Both the position numbers and the translations under genes were made by a program. Source: an uncultured Actinomycetes bacterium (lineage in GTDB: Bacteria; Actinomycetota; UBA4738; HRBIN12). From it: a DNA stretch of 64,000 nt. Below, one piece after another: positions 39,998 through 62,934 of this stretch. The stretch's first letter is position 1. Each line of letters starts with the position of its first letter. The stretch is from the NCBI GenBank assembly GCA_963831325.1, contig CAWHQA010000004.1:128069-192068 (forward strand). Direction: 5' to 3'. The notes under the pieces are model-generated. The model made no database searches. It was not told the DNA's origin and saw only the letters and a program-made list of their open reading frames with translations.

Positions 39998-40645
39998 TCA
40001 GTGGTCGCAGCCACCGATCCTGATCCGGTAGGTGACGCTGAACACCTCGTCGGGGACTCCGAAATCGACCGCAGTCTTGATGACGTGCCGGCCGCATTCA
40101 TCCTGCGGTGGCAGGGTCATGACCGTGCCGGTGAGCGACGTGCGCACGCCACCCGTGCCGAGGCCGATCTCGTCGTAGAAGCTTCCGTCCTCTGACCACA
40201 CGGTGAACGCGCCGAGGTTGAACGTCTTGCCCGAGAGTCCGACCCGCTCGCCGTCGAACTTCACCCATGACGAGACGGGGGCGAAGCCGTCGTTCGCGGC
40301 GGCGATGATCTGTGCGTCGGTCGAGCCGTCGGCCGGGATCGTCGTGAACCATGCGGCGTGCGAGAACACGATCGCCGTGTCGAGCGGAACCCGGCACCTG
40401 AGCTCCATGTCCTGGCCGATCGGCGGCGCCATGAAGAACGCGTTGCCCACGCGGTCGCCGCAGTCTCCCTCGAACGCCAACAGCAGCGGGCTCGGGCTTT
40501 CGCCGAGCGCCCAACGCGCCAGCGATCGGGCTCGGGTGAGGCCGGTCTTTTGAAGGTCGTCGCCATCGGTGCTCGCGTGAGCGGGAACGGTTCCCCCCAT
40601 GACGAAACACACCATCGTGGCGAGCAGCAAGAGCCGCCGGATCAT
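39998..40645 (-). CDS. Secreted hypothetical protein (signal peptide, 6 Cys)
   Basis: The start is set at MIRRLLLLATMVCFVMGGTVPAHA (ATG 40645) within ORF 39998..40753. The mature part is beta-rich: ..FEGDCGDRVGNAFFMAP..RCRVPLDTAIVFSHAAWF... I recognised no family. It is divergent from the cyclase-STAND-SLOG gene. Confidence 0.6.
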   Translation of the reverse strand: MIRRLLLLATMVCFVMGGTVPAHASTDGDDLQKTGLTRARSLARWALGESPSPLLLAFEGDCGDRVGNAFFMAPPIGQDMELRCRVPLDTAIVFSHAAWFTTIPADGSTDAQIIAAANDGFAPVSSWVKFDGERVGLSGKTFNLGAFTVWSEDGSFYDEIGLGTGGVRTSLTGTVMTLPPQDECGRHVIKTAVDFGVPDEVFSVTYRIRIGGCDH

Positions 40646-40705
40646 CGCATTCCCCTTCCCGGTACTACGTAGGGCGGGCAGCCGACACGACGCTACTCCC
40701 CGGGC

Positions 40706-43700
40706 GTGCCTGCGCGCAACCCTTCGAGCCGGCACATCGCCGGCGCAGGGCACATCGAGGCGCTACTAGCGGCGTATCGTTCGGCCGTGCAGGTGTGCAG
40801 GAAGTGCGGCGAACGCAATCCCGACCGGGCTCGGTTCTGCATGAGGTGCGGCGCCTCGCTCGACGACACCCAGCGCCCGCTCGAATCGCGGAAGGTAGTC
40901 ACGGTGCTCTTCGCCGACCTCCGTGGATCTACCGCGATCGGGGAGCGCCTCGACCCCGAAGCCGTTCGCCGGGTTCTCACGAGGTTCTACGACGCCGCGC
41001 GCGAGGTGATCGAGCGCCACGGCGGCACAGTGGAGAAGTTCATCGGTGACGCGGTCATGGCTGTCTTCGGAGTGCCGCTCGTGCACGAAGACGATGCCCT
41101 ACGAGGGGTGCGCGCGGCGGCCGAGCTGCAACAAGTCCTCGGGCACATGAACGACGAGCTGCTCCGCGCCAAGTACGGGGTCGGCCTCGAGCTGCGCATC
41201 GGCGTGAACACCGGCGAGGTCGTGGCCGGCGACCCTTCCACGGGCAGCTCGTTCGTGGCCGGCGATGCCGTGAACGTCGGCGCCCGACTCGAGCAGGCGG
41301 CGCCTCCCGGCGAGGTGCTCATCGGTTCGGAGACACAGCAGGCGGTCGGATGGGCCGTCGAGGTGGAAGCCATCGAACCGCTCGACCTGAAGGGGAAGTC
41401 GGAGAAGGTGCCCGCGTATCGGCTCGTGGCGCTGCGCTCACCGGACCAGGTGCCCGAACTGCTTCCCTTGATCGGCCGCGATCGGGAGCGACGCCGGCTC
41501 GATGACGCCCTCGATGCCGCCCTGAGCGCATCGCGCGCCGTGACCGTCACGTTGTCGGGTCCGCCGGGTATCGGCAAGACCCACCTCGCCGAAGACGCTC
41601 TCGAGCGGTGGCACCGAGAGCGCGGCGTTCGAGCCGTCGAGGTGCGATGCGTCGCCGAGGGGGAGGGCAACCCGCTCGGCCCGATCGTGGCGTTGATCCT
41701 CGGGCTCCTGAACGCTCCGGCGGGCGCTCCGGCCGACGATGTCGCCGCGGCGATCCGACTTCGACTGGACGAGCATGAGCGCGCGCCGGTGGTCGCGACG
41801 GTGGTGGCGGGCCTCGTGCGCGGCGGCGGGGCCCGCCCCTCGATGGTCGACGTGGCCTGGGCGGCGGCCGAGCTCGTGTCATCGGTTGCCCGCGAGGCCC
41901 CGGTGGCATTGCTCATCGACGACGCTCACCGGAGCGACGATGATCTCGATGCTGTGCTGCACGAGGTGACGACGCGCCCGGATCGGCCCGTCGTGCTGGT
42001 ACGAACGGTGTTGCCCGAGTTCTCGTCGGGCACGACCGAAACGATCACGCTGGATCCTCTGGGGGACGCCGCATCGCGCGAGCTGCTCCTCTCGGTCATG
42101 GGCGACACGCCGGCCAACGACCGCATCGTCGCTCAGGCCGACGGCAATCCCCTGTTCCTGATCGAGACGGCGCGCATGCTCCGCGAAAGCGGCCCGCAGG
42201 ACGCCTCGGAAGCCCTTCGGGTGCCGACGACGATCAGGGGGTTGCTCGCAGCCCGCATCGAACGACTTCCTGCCGCCGAGGCGCGGCTGCTCGAGACGGC
42301 TTCGGCTATCGGTCGCGTCTTCCCGCTGGAGGGCGCCGCATCGATCGCGCGGATCGGGCTCGATCAGGTGAGCGCCGCAGCGACGTCGCTCGAGGGTCGG
42401 CACCTGTTGACCGAGGTCGGAAGCGTGCACGGCGCCAACACCTCGTTCTCCCATGCCCTCGTGCGTGAGGTCGCCTACCAGAGCATGACGAAAGAACGGC
42501 GCGCCGATCTGCACGAACGTTACGCTGCGTGGCTACAAGCCCGAGGACGGACCCTTCCGTCGGTCGTCGCCCATCATCTAGAGCAGGCATATGTGCTCCG
42601 CAGCAGCTTGGGCGTGCCGGGTCCTGACGAATGGCGGCTCGCAGCCCGGGCAGCGACGGCATTCGCGGCGAGCGGCCTGCACGCCATCGCGGGGGAGTCG
42701 CGTGCAACAGCGATCGCAGCCCTCAGCCGAGCGCGCGCGCTCGTAACCGCGATCCCTGCCGGGGCCGGAGCGTCCGAGGTCGCGCTCGAAGCGCGATCCT
42801 CGTCGGGTCGCTTGGCGGTCGATCTCGGGGACTGGGAGGCCGCGATCGAGCTGCTCGATCTCGAGTCGCTCGGTCCGACCGAGGGGCACGGCGACAGCTA
42901 TCGCCTGGGTCTTGCTCTTACGCAGGCACATCGTGGCCGGGCCGATCACGCCGAGCTGCGGCGTGGCCGCGCGCTGCTCGAGAGCCTGCTCGACACGGCC
43001 CCAACGGCAGACGTGGCCGCCTCGCTCGCCGGCAGTTGGAAGGGCATCGACGACGAGCGCGCCCTCGATCTGTATCGATCTGCGCTCGATCTGGACCCGG
43101 GGGATCCGTATGCGCTTGGAAACGTCGTGGAGTTCGAAGCTGTGAGCAGCGGATCGCTCGACGTGGTCCGCGGCATGGGCACTTTCCTCGATGCCGCAGC
43201 TCGTCGATGTCGCAGCCAGATCGAGCGCGGTGAGAACCAGCCTTGGGCAAGCTTCGATCTGGCCAAGTTCGCCCTGCTCTCAGGCGCACACGACGACGCC
43301 TTCGAAGCGGCCTGTCTGGCCGTCGCGCGCAGTTCCGCCCGATTCATGGTCGAGACATCGCTTCGGTCGCTCGAGCGGTTCTCGGCGATCGACGGCTCGA
43401 TCGCCGGTCTGCAGCGGGTGGTCTCGCTCTACCGCCTCGCGCTTGCCGCCGGCTTCGGTGCTGATGAGGTGGTCCCGTCGTTGCCCTCGACTCCTGACGC
43501 TCGATCGTTCACCCGTCCGGTCGTCATCATCGCCGGAGGATCCTCGCTCGAGTCTGAGGCCCAAGTGCTCCGGTTCGGTCCGCTGGTGCGCGAAGCCATG
43601 CGCGGGGGAGGGGGAACGCTGGTGTCCGGCGCGACCCGTCAAGGCGTGAGTCTGATCGCAGGCGACATCGCGGAAGATGATGCGTTCCGGGCCATCGGAT

Positions 43701-44047
43701 ATCTGCCGGCCTCGATACCGGCTAACGTCGAGGTCGATCACGAGCGGTACGCGGAGCTGCGACGCACGACCGGCGAGGACTTCAGCGTCGCGGAACCGTT
43801 GCAGTACTGGAGCGACGTTGTTGCGAGCGGCATCGACCCTGCCGACGTCCGGGTGCTCGCGATCGGCGGCGGCGGCATCTCGGCCGCGGAGTATCGCATG
43901 GCGTTGGCGCTCGGGGCTCGGGTCGGCGCGATCAGCGGAAGCGGCGGGGCGGCGTCGGAGCTGTTGCGCGACCCGTGGTGGGCGGCGACGACGAGGCTGG
44001 TCGAGCTTGCGCCCGAGGTCGAAGCGATGCGCGAATTCCTCGGGTAG
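40706..44047 (+). CDS. Zn-ribbon + class III nucleotide cyclase + P-loop STAND ATPase + TPR/helical (MAP3K-TRAF-binding/DUF4071-like) region + C-terminal SLOG/LOG-like Rossmann domain
   Basis: Intact 1113-aa ORF; an alternative start at GTG 40787 gives MQVCRKCG.
- Zn ribbon: CRKCGERNPDRARFCMRCG.
- Cyclase: VVTVLFADLRGSTAIGE..KFIGDAVMAVFG..LRIGVNTGE..GDAVNVGARL..GEVLIGS.
- Walker A GPPGIGKT (nt 41558-41581) and Walker B ALLIDDAHRSDDD.
- Helical region with ..LAGSWKGIDDERALDLYRSALDLDPGDPYALGNV.. and ..NQPWASFDLAKFALLSG...
- Last 177 aa (nt 43514-44044): RPVVIIAGGSS...TLVSGATRQGVSLIAGDIA...VLAIGGGGISAAEYRMALALGARVGAISGSGGAA. These are the two Gly-rich motifs of LOG/SLOG-type nucleotide-binding folds. 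Confidence 0.85.
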   Translation: MPARNPSSRHIAGAGHIEALLAAYRSAVQVCRKCGERNPDRARFCMRCGASLDDTQRPLESRKVVTVLFADLRGSTAIGERLDPEAVRRVLTRFYDAAREVIERHGGTVEKFIGDAVMAVFGVPLVHEDDALRGVRAAAELQQVLGHMNDELLRAKYGVGLELRIGVNTGEVVAGDPSTGSSFVAGDAVNVGARLEQAAPPGEVLIGSETQQAVGWAVEVEAIEPLDLKGKSEKVPAYRLVALRSPDQVPELLPLIGRDRERRRLDDALDAALSASRAVTVTLSGPPGIGKTHLAEDALERWHRERGVRAVEVRCVAEGEGNPLGPIVALILGLLNAPAGAPADDVAAAIRLRLDEHERAPVVATVVAGLVRGGGARPSMVDVAWAAAELVSSVAREAPVALLIDDAHRSDDDLDAVLHEVTTRPDRPVVLVRTVLPEFSSGTTETITLDPLGDAASRELLLSVMGDTPANDRIVAQADGNPLFLIETARMLRESGPQDASEALRVPTTIRGLLAARIERLPAAEARLLETASAIGRVFPLEGAASIARIGLDQVSAAATSLEGRHLLTEVGSVHGANTSFSHALVREVAYQSMTKERRADLHERYAAWLQARGRTLPSVVAHHLEQAYVLRSSLGVPGPDEWRLAARAATAFAASGLHAIAGESRATAIAALSRARALVTAIPAGAGASEVALEARSSSGRLAVDLGDWEAAIELLDLESLGPTEGHGDSYRLGLALTQAHRGRADHAELRRGRALLESLLDTAPTADVAASLAGSWKGIDDERALDLYRSALDLDPGDPYALGNVVEFEAVSSGSLDVVRGMGTFLDAAARRCRSQIERGENQPWASFDLAKFALLSGAHDDAFEAACLAVARSSARFMVETSLRSLERFSAIDGSIAGLQRVVSLYRLALAAGFGADEVVPSLPSTPDARSFTRPVVIIAGGSSLESEAQVLRFGPLVREAMRGGGGTLVSGATRQGVSLIAGDIAEDDAFRAIGYLPASIPANVEVDHERYAELRRTTGEDFSVAEPLQYWSDVVASGIDPADVRVLAIGGGGISAAEYRMALALGARVGAISGSGGAASELLRDPWWAATTRLVELAPEVEAMREFLG

Positions 44048-44065
44048 GGAGAGGAGGCTGCGTTG

Positions 44066-45379
44066 ATGAGCAAGGTCGCCCGGGATGTCTTCGTCAGCTA
44101 CCGACGTGATGACGCGGGCGGGTATGCGGGACGCCTCGGCGACGCCCTCGCGGATCGGTTCGGAGCCGACCACGTCTTCCTCGATGTGGTCAGCATCGCG
44201 CCCGGTGCCGATTTCGTGGCCGCGATCCGGGAGGCGATCTCGGCGTGCGATGCATTCGTGCCCGTCATCGGACCCGGCTGGGCGGATTCCCGCGATGGTC
44301 GGGGGAACCGCAGCTCGACGACCCGGATGACGTGGTGCGTCTCGAGATCGAGGCGGCACTGGAACTGGACGTCGCGGTCATCCCTGTGCTGGTGGGCGAC
44401 GCGTCGATGCCGACGGCCGACGGGCTCCCACCGGGACTGCTCGGCCTCGCGAAGCGGAACGCCGTGCCGATCAGCAACGCTCGCTGGTCCTCCGACGTGT
44501 CCCGTCTCATCGCGGCGCTCGTGGGCGGGACCAGGACGCAGGACCTGGTGTGGGTTCCGCCACGAGATCTGCAGTACGCCCACCGTGAGGATGCGAGCAT
44601 CGCCTTCGAGGCTTTCGGCCGCGGACCCGTCCTGGTGTATATGCCGAGCTGGGCATCGAACATCGAGTCGAACCACCGGCACGCGCCGTACCACCGCTGG
44701 CTCTCGGATCTTTCGCAGATGTGCCGTCTGATCGTCGTGGATAGTCGCGGACGTGGATGTTCCGACGGGGTCAGCGAGAGTCTCGAGGTTCACGTGGAGG
44801 ATCTCATGGCCGTGCTCGATGCCTCCGGCTCTCCGCGTGCAACCTTGTTCGGCGTCCAGGAGACGAGGTTGATCGCCCTGCTGGCTGCGGCGAGACATCC
44901 CAACGCATCACCCGTCTGGTCCTCTTCGACGCCAGCGCCTCGTACGCTCCGACCGACGACGACGCGTCGTCATGGGTCGACGAAGACTGGGAAACGGCCG
45001 TCCGCACCGAGGACATGTGGGGGACCACGGCCTACACTCATTCCTGGGCCCTGGCTCACACGCCCTCGCTGGTGGGAGATGTGGGCGCTCGAATGGCTGA
45101 CGACCCTCTTCCGCCTCACGTACGGTCCTCAGAGTCTGCACGTGCAGACCCGGATGTTCATGCGGGCCGACGTTCGCGACGCATTGCCTTCGGTCGTGGC
45201 TCCGACGCTCGTGCTTCGGCGCGAGCACGACGCCATCTTCAGCGAGCAAGAGTGCCGGTACGTCGTGGACCGGCTGTCGAAAGCGCCTAGAGGAGCTCTC
45301 AGGTCGAGATGCGATGCCGTGGGCGGGTGACACTCGACCGGTCACCGAGGCGATCGCACGGTTCCTCAAGACCGGCTAG
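44066..45379 (+). CDS. TIR domain + alpha/beta-hydrolase-fold domain fusion (frame-broken)
   Basis: SD GAGGAGG precedes ATG 44066, 18 bp after the upstream stop. The TIR part is DVFVSYRRDDAGGYAGRLGDALADRFGADHVFLDVVSIAPGADFVAAIREAISACDAFVPVIGPGW....DDPDDVVRLEIEAALELDVAVIPVLVGDASMP. The second part, ..LQYAHREDASIAFEAFGRGPVLVYMPSW..LIVVDSRGRGCSDG..ATLFGVQETRLIALLAAARHP.., is collinear with the hydrolase-like module of the 7535 cyclase. The end is ..VTEAIARFLKTG*. The pieces are ORFs 44063.., 44245.., 44757.. and a fourth frame. Confidence 0.8.
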
Positions 45380-45404: not shown

Positions 45405-48400
45405 TCAGTCCGCGATGGCGAACGTGGCGAGCACGCGATCCACGGCCGGCATGAATCTCTCGAAGCTACGACGGTCGGCTGAGAACGCGTTCACGACGAT
45501 GGTGGAGCCGCCCGTTTCCAGGACGATCCATCGGTCGACTCCCCGGGGCCGAGAGCGTTGACAAAGTCGTCAGTCGTGAGAGGTCCGGTCTCGTGTCGTG
45601 CCGACATCGCCAAAGCGTGACGCATCCTCCACAGGTCGGCCATGGGTTTTCGCGCGGCACGGAGACCACCTCGGTGTCGACGGAAACGCCATCGATGTCC
45701 CCGACGCTCATGGGTGTGGGGGAGGTGGTCTCCAGGTCGGGGTGTCTTGCGAGCCATCTCGGCAGATCTTGTGGAAAGGGCAACAGATTCCTTCGCTCGT
45801 CCCAATCCTTGAATGGGTCGAGCCGCGCCCTGGATTGAGGGAGATGAAGCTCAATCCGCTGAAGGGATCGTCGATCGGCTGAAGCTGCACGAGGTACCAA
45901 ACCCAACATCCTTCTCGTCCGGAGCCAGCTCTGCCGTGACGAACCAATCGTCCTCCAGGTCGAAGGAGAACTCCGGGTACGCGTGCTCGAGTGTGTATGT
46001 GCCGGGCGTTACGACACCGTTCGAGACGCGCTCTCCATCGGCATCGACAGCACGACCGGACCGCTCTTCGAAGCGCCTACGAGTCTCCGCTGCGACTCGA
46101 GCCTCAGGGCCCAAGGAATCGGCCAGCCGTCGCCGGGCGAGCGAGATGAGTTCACCGATGCTGCCACAAGCATCGCAACGATCGATCCTGACGGACGTCT
46201 CGTTGGTGCTCACGACCCTGGAGCCGTCGCCGGTGAAGAATGCAATGCGCCCGGTCCACCGCCTCCCCCGAACGAGGCGAGCAAGTCACCGGAGTTCGGG
46301 TCCCACACCCGGGTGGTACCGCCGTCGTCGGTCGTCGCGACCCTCTGACCGTCAGCATCCCACCACACGCTGTTGACCACTCCGTCATGGCCTGGGAGCC
46401 GCCGCAGCAACTCACCTGACTCCGGATCCCACACGCGTGCGACTCCGTCATCCGAGCGTGTGGCCACACGCTCGCCATCAGGCGAGAAGACCATACCCAG
46501 AACCTCACCACCATCCTCGAGGGAGGCGATTCGACGGCCTGCCCGGGCGTGCCACACGATCGCGGTCGAGGCGACGGTTCCCGCGAACCGGCCGTCTGTA
46601 CTGAGGGCGAGGCCGACTCCACCCGATCGGAAGAGGCGGTCGTCGTGCCACAGTTCTTCGCCCGAGCCCGCGTCCCACATGCGGACCGTTCCATCACCCA
46701 CACCCGATGTGAAGACGAGGCCATCCCCACTGATATGGGCTTCCCAGACGCCTCCGAACTCATTCGGCTCGCCATGCCTGTACATGCCGAGTTGCTTCCC
46801 TGTGCATGCATCCCGCAGGCGAGCCTGCCATCGTCGCTCCACGTCAGGGCGCGATCAGAGCTCGCGAAGAAGTCGGCTGCCATGTACGTCTCGTCGTGGC
46901 CACGGAGCTCCGTCACCAACCTTCCGGAAGCCACGTCCCACACACGGCCCGATTCCGTCCAGTCCCTCCAGAGACGAGCAACCGTCCGTCGGTGCTGAGG
47001 GAGGCGGTGGTCAGCGGTGCGCCGGCATCGAGCCGCATGGTCTCGCGTCCGGTATCGGAATCGACAGGTATGCCGCACCATCCCACGTCGATACCGCGAT
47101 CCGCGGACCCGAGGGGTCGGCGGACGCGAACGAGATCTCGCCCTTGACGACCGTCCGTCCGGTCGACACATCCCAGATCCGAGCCGTCCCGTCACGGCCC
47201 CCGGTCACCACGCTGGCGCCATCGGGAGAGAAGCGGGCATCCAGGACCTCGCCCGCATGACCTCGAAGGGTTGCGATCGACGTGCCGTCGTCCGCGTCCC
47301 AGACCCTCGCCGTTCCATCCGTGGCTCGAGGTGACGACAAGGGCTCCGTCGTTGCTGAACGAAGCGGTACCGATTTCACCCTGGTGTCCTCGGAGGACGG
47401 CGGGCTGCCGTCCAGCCCGGGCGTCCCACACCCTCGCCGTCTCATCCTCCCCGGCGGTGACGACGGAGCGACCGTCGGGGGAGAACGTAGCCTCGACGAT
47501 AGGCGTGGCTCCCGGGTCGAGATCTGCCAGGAGGCGTCCCGATGCTGGCTGCCCAGATCTTCGCAGTCCCATCCTCGCTGGCGGTCGCTATCCGCGATCC
47601 GTCGGGGGAGTAAGAGGCGCTGTACAGGCCGTCGACGTGTCCTTCCAACACGCTGATCGTCCGACCGCTCTTCGCATCCCACAAGCGAGCTGTGTCGTCA
47701 TCACTTGCCGTCACGATGGTCGTGCCTCTAGGATCGAAGTCCACGTCGTAGATCGGCCGGGAATGTCCACGGAACACGCCCACCAACCGGCAGGTCGAAG
47801 GATCCCATGTTCTCGCGATGCCGTCTTCCCCGGCGGTGACGACGCGAGCGCCGGACGCATCGAACGTCGCATCGTGCACCGCCCCACCGCCGTGACGCAA
47901 CGTGCAGACTTCGTCGCCACTGTCTGCATCCCACACGATAGCGGTGCCATCGAAGCTCGCGGTCACGGCCAGCGAGCCGTCGGGGGAGTAGTCGACGGAT
48001 TCGATGATGTCGTCATGTCCAGACAGCACGACCGGTGCTCGCGAGCTCGCCGTGTCCCACAAGCGGGCGGTTCCGTCTGTACTCCCGGTAAGGATCCTCC
48101 GCCGACTGGGCTGTATCGAACGGAGACGATCGCAGCCTCGTGTCCGCGCAGGGTTCGCCGAACCCTCGAGGTCTCCAACGATCGCCGGAGCGCATCGACT
48201 GCCTCGGCGGTCTGGGCACTCGCCATGGCTTCGGTCGCTAGCACGAGCGACCGTTCGGGGTCGACGGCGAGCTGACCCATGGCCGAGGCGGCGAGTTCCC
48301 TCGATCGTGAGTGGGCCGCTTGCTCTCGCGCCTCGCCCCGTTGCACGAGCGCGAACGCGCTGAGCGCGAGCGAGACGACGAGTGCCGCGGCCACCGCGGC

Positions 48401-55552: not shown

Positions 55553-56463
55553 ATGAGGCGGACATGGATCGGGGTCGCTGCTCTGACCGCGCTGGTTCTG
55601 GTAGCGCAACCGGCGGCGGCGACCTTCCCCGGGGGCAACGGCAAGATCGCCTACTTCGATTACACCGGTGAACCACTCCACATCTACTCGATCGATCCGG
55701 ACGGTTCAGGACGGATACAGCTCACCTCAGGCTCGATGGCTAATCAGTACCCGGCGTGGTCGGCCGACGGCGCCACGATCGCGTATGTCCGCTCACGCGG
55801 GATCGAGACGGGCCGTCATTCCATCCTCACGATGAACGCTGACGGCACAGGCGACACCGTCCTGTTCCGCGCGAAAGACAACCGGAAGGAGATCCTCGAT
55901 CCGGCGTGGTCCCCGGACGGCACCCAGATCGTGTTCTGCGCCGAAGGGCGTCAACCACCTGCGCTCTTCGTCATCGACGCCGACGGGACCGGCCTGACGA
56001 AGCTCACGCGCGGACGACACTTCGACTGCCACCCGTCGTGGTCCCCGGACGGCAGCACGATCGCGTTCGCGACGATCAGGGGACGGCACTTCTCGATCGC
56101 GACCATGGCCACCGACGGGTCGAACAGGACGCTGTTGGTCCGCCGTGGGTCGAATGACGTGCCCGATTGGTCGCCTGACGGATCCCAGCTGGTGTTCTTC
56201 CGGGTGCACGGGCGCCGCAGCGACGTCTTCATCATCGATGCGGACGGCACCGGGCGAACCCAGTGACCCATTCGACGAAACGGTGGGAATGGACACCGAC
56301 AGTCTCGCCCGATGGCCAGCGGATCGCGTTCGGACGAGGACAGGGCCGGACGATCTTGCACGATGCCGACATCTACTCGATGGCGACGGACGGCACCGAC
56401 GTTCAGCGGCTCACGAGCACGGATCGTTTCGACGAGATCTGGCTCACCTGGCAACCCACGTAG
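55553..56463 (+). CDS. Secreted TolB-like / PD40 beta-propeller repeat protein (one frame break near 56260)
   Basis: The signal peptide is MRRTWIGVAALTALVLVAQPAAA. Then comes TFPGGNGKIAYF. Blades include WSADGATIAY, WSPDGTQIVF, WSPDGSTIAF and WSPDGSQLVF. It continues in ORF 56263..56463 (VSPDGQRIAF...DIYSMATDGTDVQRLT..). It is a paralog of 32255..33196. Confidence 0.8.
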
Positions 56464-56499: not shown

Positions 56500-59400
56500 T
56501 CATCGCCCGATCTCGATGGTTCCGATGATGGGTCGGAGTGCCGCGAGGGTCCGCTCGAGTCCCTCGCGCGACTCCGCGCGGATCATCACGAGCACGATGC
56601 CCTCCTCGGTCTCGATCTCGATCCATCGCTGTTCGTCGCCACGTGAGACGCCGACGAACAGGTCGTGGGCAAGTGGACCCATTCGGTTCGTGACCGTGAT
56701 CGGCATGATCGGCAGGCAGTCGGTGCACATCGGGGGCAGGTTCTGCTGCTGTACCGAAGCGACGCGAAGATCGATAGCCGTTCCAGCAGCTCCGCCGAGC
56801 GTGGTGTCTTCGACCCGGCGTAGATCCAGGTGCGGATGATCGTCGACCCACGCGGCGAGGTCGTCGGGGAATGGGACGATGTTGCGACGCTCGTCCCATT
56901 CCTTCCATCCGTCGAAGACGCGCCCGGGTTCGAGGTGGACGAAGAAGATGTTCACGGCCGCATCGTCGGCCTTCGAGAGCAGGACCGAGGTCGCAGTCTG
57001 TGCTTCGCCTTCGTTGGCCCAGCCGATATCGGTCGTGGCGATCCATCCTTCGGGAACGCTGAAGGACAGGCTTGGAGCGAACCGGTGGCCGAGTAGGCGC
57101 CGGCTGGGAGCGGTCCGTCGCTGTATGTCCTCGCCATGCACGTCGACCAGTCCTGCCGGCCTCGATGCATCGTCGGTGGCAGGCTCCGAAGCTGTTCCCA
57201 GGAACGCGCTCTCTTCGGCGGCTGTCAGACCCCGCGTGGTCCGCTCTTCCGCGAGCTGAAGGAGTTCCTCCACGGGCACGCAGGCGTCGCAGCGATCGAC
57301 CCGAACGCCGTTCGCATCGTTGGTCACGATGGTGCGATCTCCAGCGACGAAGAAGGCCATCGTGGCGCCGTAGGCGGCATCGAAGGAGGCGACCAGCTCA
57401 CCCGACACAGGGTTCCAGATGCGTGTCGAGCCCCCGTCCTCGGCGGCGACCACCCATCGGCCGTCGTGACTGAACCTGGCATCCACCGAGCTCTCTTCGC
57501 TCTGCATCGTCGAGAGGACGCGACCCGTCCGCGCGTCCCATACCCGCACCGGTCCGTCATCGCTGCGGGTGACGACCATCCGCCCGTCCGGGGAGAAGCG
57601 TGCGTTCTGGATCAGGTCGGGGGCATCCAACGAGGCGACGACGCTGCCGTCATCGACATCGACGATCCTGGTCTGGCCGGACACGATCGCGAGCAGGTCC
57701 GCGTCCGGGCTGAAGTTGACCGACATCCCAACGGTCCCACTCCAGAGATCCTCGATCGACCACCGCTCTTCCGCGGAAGCCGCATCCCACATCCGGACGA
57801 CGCCATCGCCGCTGCCGGCGGTCACGACGTTGAGAGCATCCGCGCTGAGGGTTGCATCCCAGATGCCGCCACTCTCGGCGTTGCCGTGTTCGAAGGACGC
57901 CGTTTCCCTGCCGGTGACGGGATCCCAGAGCCTCGCCGTGCCGTCGTCGGAGAACGTGAGCGCGCGATCTCCGACCGGGACCGGGACGGGGACGGTGAAT
58001 CCCGGTCGATGACCGACCAGTTCCTCGATCTGCTCGCCGGACTCGATATCCCACACGTGTGCGACGCCGTCGAACCCTGCGGACGTCACGAGTGACCCGT
58101 CCGGCGAGACGGCGGCACCGATCTGGAGTTGACCGGCATCGACGTTGATGAGTTCGTCCCCGACTCGGCATCGATCACGATGACCCGACCCCCCATCGTG
58201 ACCACGGCGACCTGGGTGCCATCCGGGCTCTGCGTCATCCAGAAGACCTTCGTATCGAGCACGGTTCGCCCGGAGCTCGGTTCCCAGATCCGAGTCGTCC
58301 CGTCCTGCCCACCCGAGGCAACGAACGTTCCGTCGGGAGAGAAGCGCGCGTCAAGGACGGCGCCGTCGTGGCCGCTGGAGCACGGCGAGGGGGGAGCCGC
58401 TCTCTGCATCCCAGACACGCACGGTGCCGTCCTCGCCGGTGGTCACGACCTGGGATCCGTCGAGGCTGAACGCGATCGTGTTGAGGCCACCTTGATGCCC
58501 GCGAAGGACGAGCGTACGACCGGTCCCTCCGTTGACGATCCGAGCGGTTCCATCTTCGCTGGCGACACCGATCGATCTGCCGTCGGGGCTGAACAGGGCG
58601 TCGACGACAGCTCCGTTCATGCCGCCGACCTCTCGCAGCAACCTTCCCGACCGGGCGTCCCAGAGCTTCACGGTCGCATCCTCGCCAGCGGTCAGGATCC
58701 GCCGGGCATCGGGCGAGAAGCGGGAGACGTAGAGACCATCGGTGTGACCCTTCAGCGTATGGGCGAGGTCCTCACGGCGTAGGTCCCAAACCTTCGCGGT
58801 GTCGTCGTCGCTCGCTGAGGCGGCCAACGAACCGTCGGATCTTACGCTCACGTCATAGACGGGGCGATCGTGCGTGCCAAGGGTCGTGAGGCGCTCGCCG
58901 GTCTCGGCGTCCCACGCGAGCACGTTCCCATCACCGTCTCCGGTGATGACCGTCTCGCCATCGGGAGTCAGCTCGGCATCGAAGATGCCACCTCCGGTAC
59001 CGAGGAACGTGGCCACTTCCCTCCCCGAGTCCGTCTCCCAGATCTTGGCCGTCCCGTCGTAGCTGGTGGTGAGGACGCGGCTGCCATCCGAGCTGAAGCT
59101 TGCCGCGGCGATGAGATCCGTGTGTCCTGCGAGGACGAGCGGGTCCGACCGGATGCGAGATCCTGTATCCGAGCCGTGCCGTCGTAGCTGGCGGTGAGCA
59201 ATCGATCGCCGTCGGGCGAGTACTGGACGACCGATACAGGACCGTCGTGTTCGGTGAATGAGGAACGCACCCGCGACTCATCGATCGATTGCCGCATGGA
59301 GTCGACGGCTTCGGGGGTCTGTTCCACCTTCAGCGCTTCGGAGGCGAGCAGGAGCGAAAGTTCAGGATCGGTTTCTAATTGGTCGATGGCTGCCGACGCC

Positions 59401-60229
59401 AGCTCCCGAGAGCGGGATTCAGCGGCTCGTGCGACCGCCTCCTGCTCGTTCCTCACCGCTGAGCCACGTTGGATCCACGCTGCCAGACCGAGGGTCGCAG
59501 CCACGAGGGCGACGCAGACCGCGATCGCGATACCGGTACGTTGGCGACGACCCGATGCCTTGCGGGAAGCGAGTACGAATCGGGTCTGCAGTTCCGTCGG
59601 CCTCGGTTCCCGATCGGCTGAGGCGAGCGTCGCTTCCGCCCCCTCGAGGTCTCGACCTCGAAGCAGCAACGAGCCATCCTCCCCCTTCGCCTTCCATTCC
59701 GACGCCTTCACGGTGAGGCGGGTGTGAGCTTTGACGTGGTCGAGGTCGGTCTCGAGGGCTTCAACGATGTCATCGCAGGCGCTTTCGAGCGAAGTCGAGT
59801 CGATCGCATCGATCCAGTTGAGTTCGGCCAGGAACGTCGGGACGGACTCCGGATCGGTTCGTCGGATCGCCACGGGGACGATCCGTTTGCCTGCCGAACG
59901 GGCGTGCTCCAACTCCTGGGCGCAGACCTTCGAATGAGCGAGATCTGGGAGAGACCACGACCAGGTACCCATTAGCTGAGAGCGATCGCGGCTTCGATGG
60001 TGGCCATCCAGGCAGCGGATGGCGGGATGTCCTCAAGGTCGACCCAGGCTCGCTTCCCGCGGGCGGCGAGGCCTTCAACTATCCGTCGAACGACCTCCCG
60101 ATCGGCCCGGGAATAGGAGATGAAGACATCATGGGTGGCGGTCCGTGGGTCGTTCGCACCCTCAGACGGAGCGATGGGCCGAATGTCCTTCGCCAACGGT
60201 CCCGCTTTCTCCCGCTCTACCCATCGCAC
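56500..60229 (-). CDS. TIR + single TM helix + WD40 array + C-terminal domain, paralog 4 (divergent; heavily frame-broken)
   Basis: ORFs 59972..60229 (..THDVFISYSRADREVVRRIVEGLAARGKRAWVDLEDIPPSAAWMATIEAAI), 58968..59972 (..SKVCAQELEHARSAGKRIVPVAI.., HVKAHTRLTVKASEWKAKGEDGSLLLRG, TM IAIAVCVALVAATLGLAAWI), 58351..59016, 58086..58418 and 56500..58089 (WD40 blades) form one gene. After ..VDRCDACVPVEELLQLAEE comes a C-terminal domain homologous to that of paralog 1. Confidence 0.8.
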
Positions 60230-60600: not shown

Positions 60601-60818
60601 CTCCTGCCCAGAGGTTCGCAGCGGCCCATCTACCGGACTGTCGTCTGAGCGACAGTCGAAGTATCAGATCGCTGACCCGCTGGTGGAGCGAAGCAGCACC
60701 GAGGCAACCCGGCCTCGTCGAGTTGGATTCCGACGAGGACGTGACCGGGCAGGCCTTCAGGCGCCCCTGAACGGCCGCTCGTGGCACCCAGGAGAGTCTG
60801 CCTTCACGGGCGGGCTCT

Positions 60819-61633
60819 TCACTTGCCCACGTTCCGCGCGAGCGCCATCAGCACCGTCTTCGCCTGGAACGGCGTGAGCTCAGGGTGCTTCGCGAGGATC
60901 AGCGTCGAGCACCCCGCGATGTGCGGCGCCGCGAACGAGTTCCCGGTGGCGACGATCGTCTTCCCTTCGAGCCACGGGACCTCGACGTCGATGCCGGGCG
61001 CACCCCATTCCGCCGGCGGCGTGGGGTTGTAGTCGAACGCGAGGGGGTCGTCGACGTCGTCGTGCGAGGCGACCGAGAACACCGACGAGTACTCCGCCGG
61101 GAAGCTCGGCCCCGGCATGTTGTTGATCGCGCAGACGAGCATCACGCGGCGGAACGCCGCCTCGTCGGCGATGCGATGGAACACCGAGTAGTAGTCGCGC
61201 TTGCCGGTCGACAGCGAGAGGTTGATCACGCGCATGTCGTTGCGCAGCGCCCACCGCAGGCCCGCCGCGAACACGAACCCCTTGCCGGTGAGCTTGCCCC
61301 CGAGCACCCGCACGCTGTGGATCTCGCAGTCGGGCGCCATCTTCCGGATGATGCCGGCGCAGGCGGTGCCGTGGCCGAACAGGTCCTCGTGCGGTCCCTC
61401 GGTGAAGCGCACGTTGCCCGGGCGCCTCGGGGTCGAAGTCGACCGCCACCGCGCCCTCGACGGTGTCGCACCCACGGGTGATCCGCGTCGATGCCCGAGT
61501 CGAGCACGGCGACCTTGACTCCCTCGCCGGTGCTGTCGCCCCACGCCCACTCGGGCGTGATCTCGTGCGGCACGTCGACGTCGATCTGCTTGAGCGCGCC
61601 GGGCTGGAACGCCCACGACCACGCCGGGCGCAT
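60819..61633 (-). CDS. S8 family (subtilisin-like) serine peptidase, no signal peptide (frame-broken near the N-terminus)
   Basis: ORF 61226..61633 gives MRPAWSWAFQPG...GEGVKVAVLDSGIDADHP (catalytic Asp). ORF 60819..61622 gives ..LFGHGTACAGII (His), ..VINLSLS.. (oxyanion Asn region) and ..ATGNSFAAPHIAG (Ser). The start lies 3 bp after the GAF gene stop. Confidence 0.85.
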
Positions 61634-61636
61634 GCG

Positions 61637-62402
61637 CTAGCCCCGGTTCCCCTGGGCGTACATCAGGAACGTGTAGAGCAGGTCGGTCGCGGCCTGGCGC
61701 TCCTTGGGCCCGAGGGCGCCGATCTCGGCGAACAGGTCGAGCAGCTCGGCGAACTCGCGAGCGGGCCCTCGAGCCTTCTCGGCGATGCGCTCGAGCGCCG
61801 CTTGCAGGTCGCCGCTCTCGGCTGCGCGCGCAGCCGCCTTGAACATCACCCGGCCGAAGCGTGCGGAAGAGGCGCGTCGGTCTCGATCGTGACCGCGGCC
61901 TGGCGGGCGAGCGTGGAGACCAGCCGCGACTCGTCGTGCGCGCCTTCCCTGCCCTCGGGGGCGTCGAGGATCTCCATCACGCCCATGACGCCCGGCGTCG
62001 GTCTCCAGCGGGATCGCGAACACCGTCGAGGGCGTGTAGCCGGTCGCCTCGGCGATATCGCTCGCGAACCGCGGGTCGCTCGGCGCGTCGGAGATCGAGA
62101 TCGACTGACCCGACGAGAAGGCCCATCCGGCGATGCCCTTGCCGGCCTCCATCTCCATGCCGACGACCTGGTCGCCGGCCGCGCCCGAGGCCGCGACGAA
62201 CGTCAGGATCTCGCGGTTCGGGTCGAACGACGCGATCGATGCGGCCTTCGCGCCCGGTCATCTCGCGCACCGTCTCGACGATCCAGTCCAACAACTCCTG
62301 GTACCCGGGTGGCTGGATCGCCGGACCCAGGTTGGACGCGGCCTCGGCGAGCTGGCTGAACAGATCAGGACGATCGGGCGCTGAACCGGCATCGTCGCTC
62401 AT
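61637..62402 (-). CDS. GAF-domain protein with C-terminal helical tail (frame-broken)
   Basis: ATG 62402 starts MSDDAGSAPDRPDLFSQLAEAASNLG..ELLDWIVETVREMTG.. The gene continues through IASFDPNREILTFVAASGAAGDQVVGMEMEAGKGIAGWAFSSGQSISISDAPSDPRFASDIAEATGYTPSTVFAIPLE...VMGVMEILD.. (a typical GAF core). It ends ..LYTFLMYAQGNRG*. Confidence 0.75.
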
Positions 62403-62565
62403 CGTCGCGGATGGTACAGGCCGCCGCGCGGCCGCGAAAGGGTGTCGCCAATCGGACAGCTCGAGAGTCGGGTGCCTGACAGTCGGCGTGGGTTGCATGA
62501 ACCATGATGCAGGGGTCAGGATGAGCCCCAGAAGAGAGGGCTCCCACCCAGAAGGAGGGTCGGAG

Positions 62566-62934
62566 ATGTCAGACCAGGAGAAGCGCGAAGGCGCCGAGGA
62601 CGACGCCGAGGGCCAGGCACCGAGGAAGCCTCGACGAGGACGACGCCGAGGGCCAGAAGCTCCAGAGGCCGAAGCTCGCCGAGGACGACGACGCCGAGGG
62701 CCAGGTCCTTCAGAGGCCGCAAGCTCGCCGAGGACGACACCGAGGGCCAGGTCTCAGAGGCCGAAGCTCGACGAGGACGACACCGAGGGCCAGGTCTCAG
62801 AGGCCGAAGCTCGCCGACGACGACACCGAGGGCCAGGTCCTTCAGAGGCCGAAGCTCGACTGACGACGACACCGAGGGCCAGGTCCTTCAGCAGGCCGAA
62901 GCTCGCCGACGACGACGGCCTCGCCGCCCTGTAG
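62566..62934 (+). CDS. Small charged tandem-repeat protein (about 122 aa as written)
   Basis: SD AAGGAGG precedes ATG 62566 (MSDQEKREGAEDDAEGQ..). The body is built from 7 copies of a ~45-bp unit. A strong hairpin lies immediately downstream. Its coding status rests on the SD, the ATG and the terminator only. Confidence 0.5.
   Translation: MSDQEKREGAEDDAEGQAPRKPRRGRRRGPEAPEAEARRGRRRRGPGPSEAASSPRTTPRARSQRPKLDEDDTEGQVSEAEARRRRHRGPGPSEAEARLTTTPRARSFSRPKLADDDGLAAL
62596..62915 (+). repeat. Seven tandem copies of a ~45-bp unit GA(G/C)GACGAC(A/G)CCGAGGGCCAGGTC(CT)TCAGAGGCCGAAGCTCG(C/A)C
   Basis: Units start at 62596, 62636, 62681, 62730, 62773, 62816 and 62862. Their lengths are 40, 45, 49, 43, 43, 46 and 45 bp. 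In the ideal frame each unit encodes EDD(T/A)EGQ(V/K)LQRPKL(A/D). Confidence 0.9.

What the first reader, a model, noticed from the sequence alone, without database searches (positions are those of the whole stretch)
39998..62934. Island-level view: a ~22-kb block made almost entirely of signalling and conflict-type domains
- From 40.7 to 62.4 kb every large ORF carries a TIR (5 copies), SLOG, class III cyclase, STAND ATPase, GAF, beta-propeller or S8 protease domain.
- No housekeeping gene interrupts the block.
- It is bracketed by a VapBC module on the left and a repeat-protein gene with a strong terminator on the right.
- Stretches such as 45.4-46.2 kb, 55.3-55.6 kb and 59.2-60.8 kb look visibly less GC-rich than the sdh or acc regions. 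I did not compute values.
- I could not find an integrase, transposase, tRNA or direct repeats at the edges, so the block is not obviously mobile.
- This combination is typical of actinobacterial and cyanobacterial multi-domain conflict systems, but this particular gene set is not a named system.
Basis: inference. Interest (0 to 1): 0.7.

Follow-up and report, generated by a model that had tools for sequence, protein, structure and literature searches.

The report
TIR-WD40 receptor array with SLOG-gated cyclase
The block is a native, conserved gene neighbourhood of an uncultured soil actinobacterium, not an imported island, and it combines membrane-anchored TIR-WD40 "receptor-like" genes with a cyclic-nucleotide signalling module in a recurring combination I found undescribed, though the sequence carries many single-base gaps that are probably assembly errors.

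Summary
Nearly every domain call holds. There are five TIR domains. One 1113-aa protein carries a Zn-ribbon, class III cyclase, STAND ATPase, TPR and a C-terminal SLOG domain. WD40 and PD40 propellers, a GAF gene plus S8 protease, VapBC and an acidic repeat protein are also present.

Three points need correcting.
- **Composition and mobility.** The block (GC 0.675) matches its flanks (0.680-0.682). It has no tRNA or bracketing repeats, and no integrase among the ORFs scanned. The same gene set recurs in relatives down to 35% identity. It is a conserved neighbourhood with variable TIR-WD40 copy number, and it extends beyond the given coordinates.
- **Frame breaks.** Three TIR domains, GAF, S8 and the repeat gene are broken by 1-nt indels. 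So are an acyl-CoA mutase and a 3-hydroxybutyryl-CoA dehydrogenase outside the block. Most breaks are probably assembly errors, so pseudogene claims are unsafe.
- **Topology.** All four TIR-WD40 proteins have a conserved transmembrane helix, which puts TIR inside the cell and WD40 outside.

SLOG-tailed cyclase-STAND genes lie near TIR genes in 5 of 6 loci. SLOG-less homologues do so in 0 of 80.

Proposed mechanism, inferred only: TIR makes an NAD-derived signal, SLOG senses it, the cyclase makes cNMP, and CRP, MFS and GAF-S8 respond. No named defence system matches.

The parts
33716..35440 (-). MFS transporter with a C-terminal cNMP-binding domain (copy 2).
   Evidence: NCBIfam/PADLOC. MFS-cNMP genes recur in L002, L005, L089 and L091.
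35505..36197 (+). CRP-like transcription factor (cNMP-binding domain plus HTH).
   Evidence: NCBIfam CRP 1.7e-23. 69% identical to the CRP next to the cyclase in L002.
39221..39463 (+). VapB-like RHH antitoxin.
   Evidence: Pfam RHH_1 1.7e-8.
39463..39876 (+). VapC PIN-domain toxin.
   Evidence: Pfam PIN 8.5e-11.
39998..40648 (-). Secreted protein of unknown fold. Signal peptide MIRRLLLLATMVCFVMGGTVPAHAST.
   Evidence: Translation. No Pfam, NCBIfam or PADLOC hit. A 31%-identical homologue lies beside the SLOG-tailed cyclase in L091.
40706..44047 (+). Zn-ribbon, class III nucleotide cyclase, STAND NTPase, TPR and SLOG (LSDAT type) in one intact 1113-aa protein.
   Evidence: Pfam. Walker A motif. 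SLOG evidence. Orthologues are 71-77% identical in L002 and L004.
44066..45372 (+). TIR plus LipJ-type alpha/beta-hydrolase-like protein (E), starting 18 nt after the cyclase gene. It has at least 4 frame breaks.
   Evidence: Orthologue of the L004 438-aa TIR_2+Abhydrolase_1 protein. The N-terminal fragment hits ThsB-like TIR at 3e-10. A 1-nt deletion lies near 44305. Further breaks are shown.
45851..49036 (-). TIR-TM-WD40 paralogue A. TIR and TM segment are intact. The WD40 part is spread over at least 3 frames. Its GTG start overlaps the stop of B.
   Evidence: Pfam. Reading frames. Hydrophobic segment. The start overlap is read from the alignment.
49030..51882 (-). TIR-TM-WD40 paralogue B, intact at 950 aa. 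TIR spans residues 23-130, the TM-like segment about 217-239, and 14 WD40 blades follow.
   Evidence: Pfam. AF2 model pLDDT 89. Hydropathy. Glu93 is invariant in 42 homologues.
52158..55275 (-). TIR-TM-WD40 paralogue C. One extra base near 55079 splits the TIR domain. Removing it gives a 1038-aa ORF.
55553..56266 (+). Secreted PD40 (TolB-like) propeller protein with a signal peptide.
   Evidence: Pfam PD40 1.6e-21. Translation. A PD40/Tricorn-like gene sits at the same position in L005.
56500..58350 (-). WD40-only segment (D2). It is either a separate gene or the tail of D after an in-frame stop at 58351-58353.
   Evidence: Pfam. ORF layout.
58351..60229 (-). TIR-TM-WD40 paralogue D. It has extra bases near 59977 and 59946 and a further frame change near 59.2 kb.
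   Evidence: The two insertions are confirmed against the orthologue L005_g2.
60819..61633 (-). Intracellular S8 subtilase with D, H and S motifs present and no signal peptide. It has 2 frame breaks.
   Evidence: Pfam. Translations and coordinates. Homologues at 44-65% identity lie beside cyclase-STAND or TIR genes in L028, L067, L076, L080 and L089.
61637..62402 (-). GAF-domain protein immediately upstream of S8. It has 3 frame breaks.
   Evidence: Weak Pfam GAF hit. Translations. The intact orthologue in L005 scores GAF_2 2.8e-16.
62566..62934 (+). Small acidic repeat protein with about seven units of KLAEDDTEGQVLQRP. It has several indels.
   Evidence: TRF. A clean 115-aa orthologue is in L002. 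Motif clusters occur only in related loci and in Geodermatophilus L042. No Pfam family matches.
62955..62981 (.). GC-rich hairpin between the convergent repeat gene and MFS-cNMP gene.
   Evidence: Fold -32.2 kcal/mol, z -2.84. Not detected by the T-tail terminator scan.
62947..64000 (-). MFS transporter with a C-terminal cNMP-binding domain (copy 1). It runs off the window.
   Evidence: Pfam cNMP_binding 4.4e-24 and MFS_1.

Best explanation
The block is a vertically inherited multi-gene signalling or defence neighbourhood of an uncultured soil Actinomycetota lineage. It is not a recently acquired island. It joins two layers.

**Layer 1.** A tandem, diversifying array of single-pass membrane proteins has a cytoplasmic TIR domain with its catalytic Glu conserved. 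A juxtamembrane helix and one transmembrane helix follow, and then about 14 WD40 blades predicted to lie outside the membrane. A TIR-hydrolase-like protein also belongs to this layer.

**Layer 2.** A STAND-gated class III cyclase ends in TPR and an ADPR-type SLOG sensor domain. It is surrounded by cNMP receivers: a CRP-like regulator, two MFS-cNMP transporters, and a GAF protein coupled to an intracellular S8 protease. Small DDTEGQ-repeat proteins sit nearby.

**Proposed mechanism (inferred, not shown).**
1. A ligand binding the WD40 ectodomain clusters the TIR domains.
2. TIR cleaves NAD+ into an ADPR-type messenger.
3. The SLOG tail binds the messenger and releases STAND oligomerisation.
4. 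The paired cyclase domains make cNMP.
5. cNMP drives transcription (CRP), transport (MFS) and proteolysis (GAF-S8).

This follows the TIR-to-SLOG logic of Thoeris, but with a cyclase as output. Most of the frame breaks are probably assembly errors.
For: **Shown: domains.** All domains are identified.

**Shown: topology.**
- All four paralogues have a hydrophobic segment with KD19 2.4-2.5.
- 118 of 120 homologues have one.
- The upstream flank is more positively charged in 118 of 118.
- The segment lies within a 72-residue helix in a pLDDT-89 model.

**Shown: conserved module, diverged sensor.** N-terminal modules are 76-79% identical among A, B and C. The WD40 parts of B and C are only 26.5% identical.

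**Shown: recurrence.** The same gene set recurs in L002, L004, L005, L089 and L091. In L091 a TIR-WD40 gene ends 5 nt before a SLOG-tailed cyclase-STAND gene. In the window and in L004 a TIR gene directly follows the cyclase gene.

**Shown: SLOG-TIR association.** SLOG-tailed cyclase-STAND genes have TIR genes within 10 kb in 5 of 6 loci. SLOG-less homologues have them in 0 of 80.

**Shown: cyclase with cNMP receivers.** GAF+S8, CRP and MFS-cNMP also accompany distant cyclase-STAND genes, including in Chloroflexia (L076) and Kitasatospora (L067).

**Shown: native origin.** GC is native. There is no tRNA and there are no bracketing repeats.

**Shown: error reading.**
- The acyl-CoA mutase is split over three frames.
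- The 3-hydroxybutyryl-CoA dehydrogenase has compensating indels.
- Removing single bases restores conserved TIR sequence with no internal stop.
- The C-terminus of E is almost perfectly conserved in a shifted frame.

**From established knowledge.** ThsB TIR products activate ThsA through its SLOG domain. The TRPM2 MHR1/2 SLOG domain binds ADPR.
Against: - No biochemical step was tested.
- The loci with both SLOG and TIR come from related soil MAGs. The 5-of-6 versus 0-of-80 contrast therefore rests on few independent events.
- The closest stand-alone SLOG homologues (L086, L087) have no TIR neighbour.
- L089 and L090 have TIR-WD40 arrays without a cyclase-STAND within 10 kb.
- The window SLOG sequence scores below Pfam's cut-off, and no PADLOC ThsA model hits it.
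- The transmembrane segment is predicted only.
- One TIR frame break occurs in a short-read (MEGAHIT) relative. The TIR breaks also cluster within about 52 nt. Some inactivation may therefore be real.
Confidence: 0.5

Rival explanations
1. The modules are co-located but independent. The TIR-WD40 proteins are self-contained sensor-effectors that deplete NAD+ on activation. The cyclase-STAND, CRP, MFS-cNMP and GAF-S8 genes are ordinary cAMP physiology, as with the many cyclases of mycobacteria. Under this reading the synteny reflects shared ancestry only.
For: - The window holds three further cyclases unrelated to TIR genes, at 5.2-5.9 kb, 7535-8944 and 19.6-22.7 kb.
- 80 distant cyclase-STAND loci have no TIR gene nearby.
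- L089 and L090 have TIR-WD40 arrays without a nearby cyclase-STAND.
- Stand-alone SLOG homologues lack TIR neighbours.
Against: - The SLOG tail is present in this collection only on cyclase-STAND genes of the clade that also carries TIR genes.
- A TIR gene is operon-like with the cyclase gene in three loci: an 18-nt gap in the window, 92 nt in L004 and 5 nt in L091.
- The set persists through extensive rearrangement down to 35% identity.
Confidence: 0.3
2. The block is a decaying pseudogene cluster. The frame breaks are real, and most TIR genes have been inactivated, for example to remove toxic NADase activity. Only B and the cyclase-STAND gene would remain functional.
For: - C, D and E are each broken inside the TIR domain, upstream of the catalytic Glu.
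- The four breaks in the TIR-WD40 paralogues fall within about 52 nt, including one in the short-read assembly L004.
- Break density is uneven. B, the cyclase-STAND gene and several 1.5-3-kb genes are intact.
Against: - Metabolic genes are equally broken: the acyl-CoA mutase and the 3-hydroxybutyryl-CoA dehydrogenase.
- Corrected frames show no stops and high conservation.
- Two 'contig_N' assemblies of one strain, L001 and L002, differ in exactly this way.
- The S8 gene in L005 is likewise split.
Confidence: 0.13
3. The block is a horizontally acquired, mobile defence island.
For: - It is dense in defence-type domains.
- A VapBC module sits at one edge.
- Block GC (0.675) is lower than the rest of the window (0.696; Mann-Whitney p = 1e-4).
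Against: - The GC difference comes entirely from 19.5-31.3 kb (0.729). The immediate flanks match the block.
- There is no tRNA and there are no flanking repeats.
- No integrase or transposase appears in the scanned ORFs.
- The block sits between the same flanking genes (3HCDH, MFS-cNMP, acc) in relatives.
Confidence: 0.04

Closest known systems
Thoeris (ThsB TIR sensors plus ThsA SLOG effector)
   Same: - Several TIR paralogues accompany one SLOG-bearing protein.
- A TIR gene lies directly beside the SLOG gene.
- The TIR domains hit ThsB-like profiles (E 1e-6 to 3e-10).
- The SLOG fold is confirmed.
   Different: - The SLOG is of the LSDAT/TRPM type and is fused to a cyclase, STAND NTPase and TPR. 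It is not fused to SIR2, Macro or TM effectors.
- No ThsA profile hits it.
- Four of the TIR proteins are large membrane proteins with WD40 arrays.
- The locus spans more than 25 kb.
STAND/NLR-like bacterial sensors (Avs; AP-ATPase/MalT-like cyclases such as M. tuberculosis Rv0386-type proteins)
   Same: The layout is an N-terminal effector, a central P-loop STAND NTPase and C-terminal TPR repeats. The best NCBIfam match is to the cyclase-ATPase part of the TOMM kinase/cyclase fusion family.
   Different: - It carries an extra C-terminal SLOG domain and an N-terminal Zn-ribbon.
- It has no LuxR HTH.
- No Avs model in PADLOC matches it.
Pycsar (PycC cyclase plus cNMP-binding effector)
   Same: The cyclase domain hits PycC profiles at E 1e-19. 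The neighbouring proteins carry cNMP-binding domains that hit the cNMP-binding part of PycTIR profiles.
   Different: - The cNMP-binding domains are on an MFS transporter and a CRP regulator, not on a TIR or small TM effector.
- The TIR proteins have no cNMP-binding domain.
- The cyclase is embedded in a STAND protein.
Multidomain conflict systems of multicellular bacteria (Kaur, Burroughs, Iyer and Aravind, eLife 2020 PMC7159879; 2021 PMC8195603)
   Same: - The domain vocabulary is the same: TIR, cNMP cyclase, STAND, TPR and beta-propeller repeats, GAF and cNMP-binding domains, peptidases.
- Those papers also describe small processed peptides and CRP-like regulators beside STAND-TPR proteins.
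   Different: - No vWA, MoxR, VMAP or effector-associated domain was found among the scanned ORFs.
- The peptidase here is S8, not a zincin.
- I found no description there of TIR-TM-WD40 proteins or of a SLOG-tailed cyclase-STAND.
Toll-like receptors and PknB-type receptor kinases (topological analogy only)
   Same: A repeat ectodomain, a single transmembrane helix and a cytoplasmic signalling domain (TIR). The ectodomains are diversified while the cytoplasmic module is conserved.
   Different: The polarity is opposite (TIR is N-terminal) and the repeats are WD40 rather than LRR. No homology is implied beyond the TIR domain, and the topology is predicted rather than shown.

Membership tests
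TIR domain (PF13676) with NADase potential | The TIR fold is recognised by profile, and the catalytic Glu is conserved in the C-x-x-E-L-E region. | tested here: met
   TIR_2 scores 4e-25 (A) and 1e-23 (B). C, D and E match as split halves. Glu93 is invariant in 42 homologues and aligns with the Cat1 motif. Enzymatic activity was not tested.
SLOG superfamily (LSDAT_prok) | A Rossmann-like SLOG fold with Gly-rich nucleotide loops, recognised by profile or by structure. | tested here: met
   PF18171 scores 20.5 bits, below the cut-off of 25.4, in the window sequence. 10 of 26 homologues carry PF18171. The AF2 model has pLDDT 94.8. Foldseek hits TRPM2/TRPM4 MHR1/2, Moco-carrier and LOG proteins at E about 1e-6, probability 1.0.
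Thoeris | A ThsA protein: SLOG fused to a SIR2, TM or Macro effector. | tested here: not met
   The SLOG is fused to a cyclase, STAND NTPase and TPR. No PADLOC ThsA model hits it.
Thoeris | One or more ThsB TIR genes adjacent to the SLOG gene. | tested here: met
   E starts 18 nt after the SLOG-bearing gene. ThsB-like profile hits score 3e-10.
Pycsar | A PycC cyclase next to an effector that joins a cNMP-binding domain to a TIR or TM killing domain. | tested here: not met
   PycC profiles match only the generic cyclase domain. The cNMP-binding domains are on MFS and CRP proteins, and the TIR proteins lack one.
Avs / antiviral STAND | A match to Avs family models, with an N-terminal nuclease, protease or SIR2 effector. 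| tested here: not met
   No Avs hit in PADLOC. The STAND-plus-TPR architecture is present.
vWA-MoxR ternary conflict systems | vWA, MoxR AAA+ and VMAP/iSTAND components together. | tested here: not met
   None of these domains appeared among the Pfam hits for the ORFs of 39-64 kb.
VapBC type II toxin-antitoxin | An RHH or AbrB antitoxin gene abutting a PIN toxin gene. | tested here: met
   RHH_1 1.7e-8 and PIN 8.5e-11. The genes meet at 39463.
Genomic island (horizontally acquired) | Deviant composition relative to the flanks. | tested here: not met
   The block is at 0.675 and the flanks at 0.680-0.682.
Genomic island (horizontally acquired) | An integrase or transposase, a tRNA target, and flanking direct repeats. 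| tested here: not met
Genomic island (horizontally acquired) | Presence or absence as a unit among relatives. | tested here: not met
   The set is present, rearranged, in every related contig recovered. Only the TIR-WD40 copy number varies.
Single-pass membrane receptor topology | One transmembrane helix with a positive-inside charge bias. | tested here: met
   KD19 is 2.4-2.5. 118 of 120 homologues have the segment. The charge bias holds in 118 of 118. This is a prediction only. Localisation cannot be tested with these tools.

The most novel reading that the evidence does not exclude
The neighbourhood encodes a complete outside-in and inside-out circuit.
1. TLR-like TIR-TM-WD40 receptors sense an extracellular cue.
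2. Their TIR product gates a SLOG-STAND cyclase.
3. The resulting cNMP activates a GAF-partnered intracellular subtilase, which cuts the DDTEGQ-repeat proteins at their dibasic sites.
4. cNMP also opens the cNMP-gated MFS exporter, which releases the peptides as an alarm or kin signal.
5. The variable WD40 ectodomains of neighbouring cells read that signal.

This would be a bacterial cell-to-cell immune or alarm relay built from TIR, SLOG and cNMP parts.
Probability: 0.1. Interest if true: 0.9.

Novelty: new variant of a known kind. Interest (0 to 1): 0.6.

Why it matters
If the coupling is real, the TIR-to-SLOG second-messenger logic of Thoeris extends to a much larger architecture. NAD-derived signalling would feed into cyclic-nucleotide signalling through a STAND switch. 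The TIR sensors would be membrane receptors with extracellular, rapidly diverging propellers. That would be a bacterial counterpart of Toll-like receptor topology.

The N-terminal TIR-linker-TM module is very common in soil metagenomes. It matches 2,774 clusters (50% identity) at E <= 1e-30. I found no paper in the searchable library that describes it. The prediction therefore bears on thousands of unannotated 'WD40 repeat proteins'.

There is also a practical warning. This contig carries frequent single-base indels, so pseudogene and ORF-level inferences from it are unsafe.

Tried and rejected
- **Exact-protein lookup of B** found nothing. A homology search was needed instead.
- **Sigma-70 promoter and T-tail terminator scans** found nothing in 44-64 kb. 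These models suit high-GC actinobacteria poorly.
- **Rfam** gave no hit in 36-64 kb.
- **Remnant genes in the low-GC gaps.** Six-frame reading of 45.3-46.3 kb showed only the C-terminal tail of A and about 520 nt of non-coding DNA.
- **Independent TIR neighbours of stand-alone SLOG homologues.** None were found in L086 or L087. L088 turned out to be a fragmented cyclase-STAND-SLOG at a contig end.
- **TIR genes beside 80 distant cyclase-STAND homologues.** None were found. I rejected the idea that cyclase-STAND proteins in general partner with TIR.
- **Compositional island.** Rejected after sub-block GC analysis.
- **Programmed frameshifting in TIR.** Rejected because the break sites differ in position and sign.
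- **Pfam and literature searches for the DDTEGQ/DDVEGH repeat proteins.** Nothing relevant was found.
- **Taxonomy.** It could be narrowed only to 'Actinomycetota bacterium' MAGs, at 88-92% identity for the 3-hydroxybutyryl-CoA dehydrogenase.

Full report
**Context and gene calling.** The window is about 69% GC and has no tRNA. Mechanical ORF lists are noisy at this GC. I therefore used third-position GC and a codon-usage frame scan, then tested the candidate frames with Pfam, NCBIfam and PADLOC. The best named relatives of a metabolic gene, 3-hydroxybutyryl-CoA dehydrogenase, are 'Actinomycetota bacterium' MAGs at 88-92% identity. The window's own contig is 192 kb.

**Anatomy, left to right.**
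- VapB (39221-39463) and VapC/PIN (39463-39876) are confirmed.
- 39998-40648(-) encodes a secreted protein with a clear signal peptide and no known domain.
- 40706-44047(+) is one intact 1113-aa protein. It carries a Zn-ribbon, a class III cyclase (4e-21), an AAA_16 STAND NTPase (5e-16, Walker A GPPGIGKT), TPR repeats and a C-terminal SLOG domain.
- The SLOG call needed extra work.
  - The window sequence scores 20.5 bits against PF18171 LSDAT_prok, below the 25.4 cut-off.
  - 10 of 26 homologues carry PF18171.
  - An AF2 model has pLDDT 94.8.
  - Foldseek's top PDB hits are the ADPR-binding MHR1/2 region of TRPM2/TRPM4, Moco-carrier proteins and LOG proteins, at E about 1e-6 and probability 1.0.
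- Eighteen nucleotides downstream starts E (44066-45372). It is a TIR plus LipJ-type alpha/beta-hydrolase-like protein, orthologous to an intact 438-aa TIR_2+Abhydrolase_1 protein in relative L004. The hydrolase part lacks a Ser nucleophile, reading GVQET at the elbow.
- About 520 nt of non-coding DNA follows at GC 0.63.
- Four paralogous genes then lie on the minus strand: A (45851-49036), B (49030-51882, intact at 950 aa), C (52158-55275) and D (58351-60229, possibly continuing to 56500).
- Between C and D is a secreted PD40 propeller gene (55553-56266).
- Next come S8 (60819-61633) and, immediately upstream of it, GAF (61637-62402), both on the minus strand.
- An acidic repeat protein follows at 62566-62934(+), then a GC-rich hairpin at 62955-62981.
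- An MFS transporter with a cNMP-binding domain runs off the window.

**Frame breaks.**
- tblastn with the intact B shows that the other paralogues are spread over frames.
- DNA alignments pin down single-base events: an extra base near 55079 in C, two near 59977 and 59946 in D, and a missing base near 44305 in E.
- Deleting one base restores C to a 1038-aa ORF with no internal stop. The repaired TIR domains of C and D are fully conserved.
- E has at least four breaks. Yet its last 23 codons, read in a shifted frame, are almost identical to the L004 orthologue.
- GAF has 3 breaks, S8 has 2, and the repeat gene has several.
- The same phenomenon affects genes outside the block.
  - An acyl-CoA mutase at about 5.9-7.4 kb has only residues 119-165 and 331-520 in one frame. 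The rest lies in the other two frames.
  - The 3-hydroxybutyryl-CoA dehydrogenase has a short out-of-frame stretch with a stop.
  - A cyclase-STAND paralogue at 19.6-22.7 kb runs through frames 2, 3 and 1.
- Two 'contig_N' assemblies of one related strain (L001 and L002) differ by exactly such splits.
- I therefore read most breaks as assembly errors, with probability about 0.8. I do not call the TIR genes pseudogenes.
- Two facts keep the alternative open.
  - Break density is uneven, and several 3-kb genes are intact.
  - A relative assembled with MEGAHIT (L004) also has a 1-nt insertion in the TIR region of a second TIR-WD40 gene. The four breaks in the TIR-WD40 paralogues fall within about 52 nt, upstream of the catalytic Glu codon.

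**Is it an island?**
- GC is 0.675 for the block against 0.696 for the rest (p = 1e-4). That difference comes only from 19.5-31.3 kb (0.729).
- The neighbouring stretches are 0.682 and 0.680.
- There is no tRNA, no recombinase among the scanned ORFs, and no bracketing repeat.
- Relatives carry the same set.
  - L005 (B homologue 58%) has the order acc, MFS-cNMP, repeat protein, GAF, S8, PD40, TIR-WD40, WD40, cyclase-STAND, cNMP-binding. This is the window read right to left.
  - L004 (87%) has B, TIR-hydrolase, cyclase-STAND, WD40 and 3HCDH.
  - L002 (77%) has MFS-cNMP, repeat protein, cyclase-STAND, CRP, two more repeat proteins, two TIR-WD40 genes and TIR-STAND-TPR.
  - L091 (35%) has MFS-cNMP, two repeat ORFs, CRP, TIR-WD40, MFS-cNMP, TIR-WD40 and, 5 nt later, a SLOG-tailed cyclase-STAND. 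A homologue of the secreted protein and TIR-STAND-TPR follow.
  - L089 (37%) has CRP, repeat ORFs, TIR-NB-ARC-TPR, S8, GAF, MFS-cNMP and TIR-WD40 genes.
- This is a conserved, rearranging neighbourhood with variable TIR-WD40 copy number. It is not a recently imported island.

**What belongs together.**
- A scan of 185,579 species genomes with the cyclase-STAND protein gave only 35-43% relatives.
- None of the 80 loci kept has a TIR gene of the B or E type nearby. None has the SLOG tail.
- Four of them have a 44-55% identical S8 next to the cyclase-STAND gene. Four have a CRP-like gene and six an MFS-cNMP-like gene.
- In a Chloroflexia MAG (L076) the order is MFS-cNMP, then S8 preceded by GAF, then cyclase-STAND.
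- The association of the cyclase-STAND gene with cNMP receivers and GAF-S8 is therefore old and wide.
- The SLOG tail and the TIR genes appear together in one clade: 5 of 6 SLOG-tailed loci against 0 of 80 SLOG-less loci. These are few independent events.
- Stand-alone SLOG homologues have no TIR neighbour.

**The TIR-WD40 proteins.**
- B models with pLDDT 89. TIR spans residues 23-130, followed by helices, one 72-residue helix (198-269), 14 WD40 blades and a short helical tail.
- Inside the long helix lies AIGAVAAALVVSLALSAFALV, preceded by ATRRQR. Its 19-residue Kyte-Doolittle mean is 2.4-2.5 in all four paralogues.
- 118 of 120 homologues have such a segment just before the WD40 region, including kinase- and HTH-STAND-WD40 proteins.
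- The upstream flank is more positive in 118 of 118. 93 of 120 have at least two Cys in the last 45 residues.
- The prediction is a single-pass protein with TIR in the cytoplasm and WD40 outside.
- The N-terminal modules of A, B and C are 76-79% identical. The WD40 parts of B and C are 26.5% identical. This is the pattern of a conserved signalling module with a diversifying sensor.
- The start of A overlaps the stop of B (read).
- The TIR Glu (E93) is invariant and aligns with the NADase Cat1.
- The N-terminal module matches 2,774 50%-identity clusters at E <= 1e-30, so the family is large.
- I found no paper describing it.
- A 2026 preprint reports an extracellular WD40-class propeller in an actinobacterial surface sensor. 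This is a precedent for external WD40 domains in this phylum.

**Mechanism.**
- Shown: the domain content, the predicted topology, and the recurrent linkage.
- Inferred: the WD40 ectodomain binds a ligand and TIR domains cluster. TIR then cleaves NAD+ to an ADPR-type messenger, and the SLOG tail senses it. STAND oligomerisation brings cyclase domains together, and cNMP acts on CRP, MFS-cNMP and GAF-S8.
- The inference rests on established Thoeris biology (the ThsB product activates ThsA through its SLOG domain) and on ADPR binding by the TRPM2 SLOG region.
- PADLOC finds no named system.
- Literature on conflict systems of multicellular bacteria uses the same domain vocabulary. It notes peptide-processing modules and CRP-like regulators beside STAND-TPR proteins, but not this set.

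**The repeat proteins.**
- The clean L002 orthologue reads 8 x LEQDDTEGQRQARH.
- Clusters of the motif [DE][DE][TVAS][EQL]G[QH] followed by basic residues occur in the window, L001/L002 (three genes), L005, L088, L089 (two) and L091 (two).
- They also occur in Geodermatophilus amargosae, 2 kb from a cyclase-STAND gene.
- They occur in no other locus among 3.27 million translated residues, which gave 7 isolated matches.
- No Pfam family or paper matches.
- Their position between MFS-cNMP and GAF-S8, and their dibasic sites, suggest a protease substrate or exported peptide. This is speculation.

**Verdict.** The most interesting content is a recurring combination, which I did not find described. 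It joins membrane TIR-WD40 arrays, a SLOG-tailed STAND cyclase, cNMP receivers, GAF-S8 and DDTEGQ-repeat proteins. Sequence quality limits every ORF-level claim.

Noticed in passing
window 5900-7400 (+): An acyl-CoA (methylmalonyl/2-hydroxyisobutyryl-CoA) mutase large-subunit gene is spread over all three forward frames with at least 4-5 switches. The sequence is conserved within each piece.
   Followed up: yes
window 31318-32178 (+): The 3-hydroxybutyryl-CoA dehydrogenase gene has a roughly 30-codon out-of-frame stretch ending in a stop. In-frame conserved sequence flanks it, which implies two compensating indels.
   Followed up: partly
window 19600-22800 (+): A second cyclase-STAND paralogue reads through frames 2, 3 and 1 and has no detectable SLOG tail. 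Further cyclases are a domain at about 5.2-5.9 kb (also frame-broken) and a LipJ-like alpha/beta-hydrolase-cyclase fusion at 7535-8944(-). A cNMP-binding domain lies in the 1002-aa protein at 10886-13891(-). The whole window is rich in cNMP signalling.
   Followed up: partly
window 37176-37354 and 39210-39388: A 179-nt direct repeat at 83% identity. The second copy is the start of vapB, so a second VapB-like gene lies at about 37.2 kb.
   Followed up: no
window 62566-62934; L002 289-636, 5279-5815, 5848-6255; L005 4546-4929; L089 476-721, 9669-9833; L091 1652-2074; L042 15376-15903: A family of small acidic repeat proteins with a DD[TVA]EG[QH] motif followed by basic residues. It is confined to these cyclase-STAND/TIR neighbourhoods and has no Pfam family or literature.
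   Followed up: partly
window 44700-44800 (E) and L004 3067-4383: The alpha/beta-hydrolase-like domain fused to TIR has GVQET where the G-x-S-x-G nucleophile elbow is expected. It may be a non-catalytic, ligand-binding domain.
   Followed up: no
L004 7821-8775; window 55079, 59977, 59946: The frame breaks in the TIR-WD40 paralogues fall within about 52 nt of the TIR-coding region, upstream of the catalytic Glu codon. One is in a short-read assembly, and two are at a TCTCCCC run. This could be a slippage hot spot or real recurrent inactivation.
   Followed up: partly
window 58351-58353: An in-frame stop separates two contiguous same-frame WD40 ORFs (58351-59277 and 56500-58350). D may be two genes, as in L005 where a 673-aa TIR-WD40 gene is followed by other WD40 genes.
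   Followed up: no
proteins P0147, P0148, P0149: Some relatives of the TIR-linker module are 1,800-2,200-aa proteins with 7-9 separate matched stretches. They apparently carry many tandem TIR domains in one polypeptide.
   Followed up: no
window 36200-37102 (-): A 300-aa protein (SIVARDPETGRLGVAVQSHWF...) has no NCBIfam hit. It sits between the CRP-like gene and the M1-aminopeptidase-like gene at 37660-39192.
   Followed up: no
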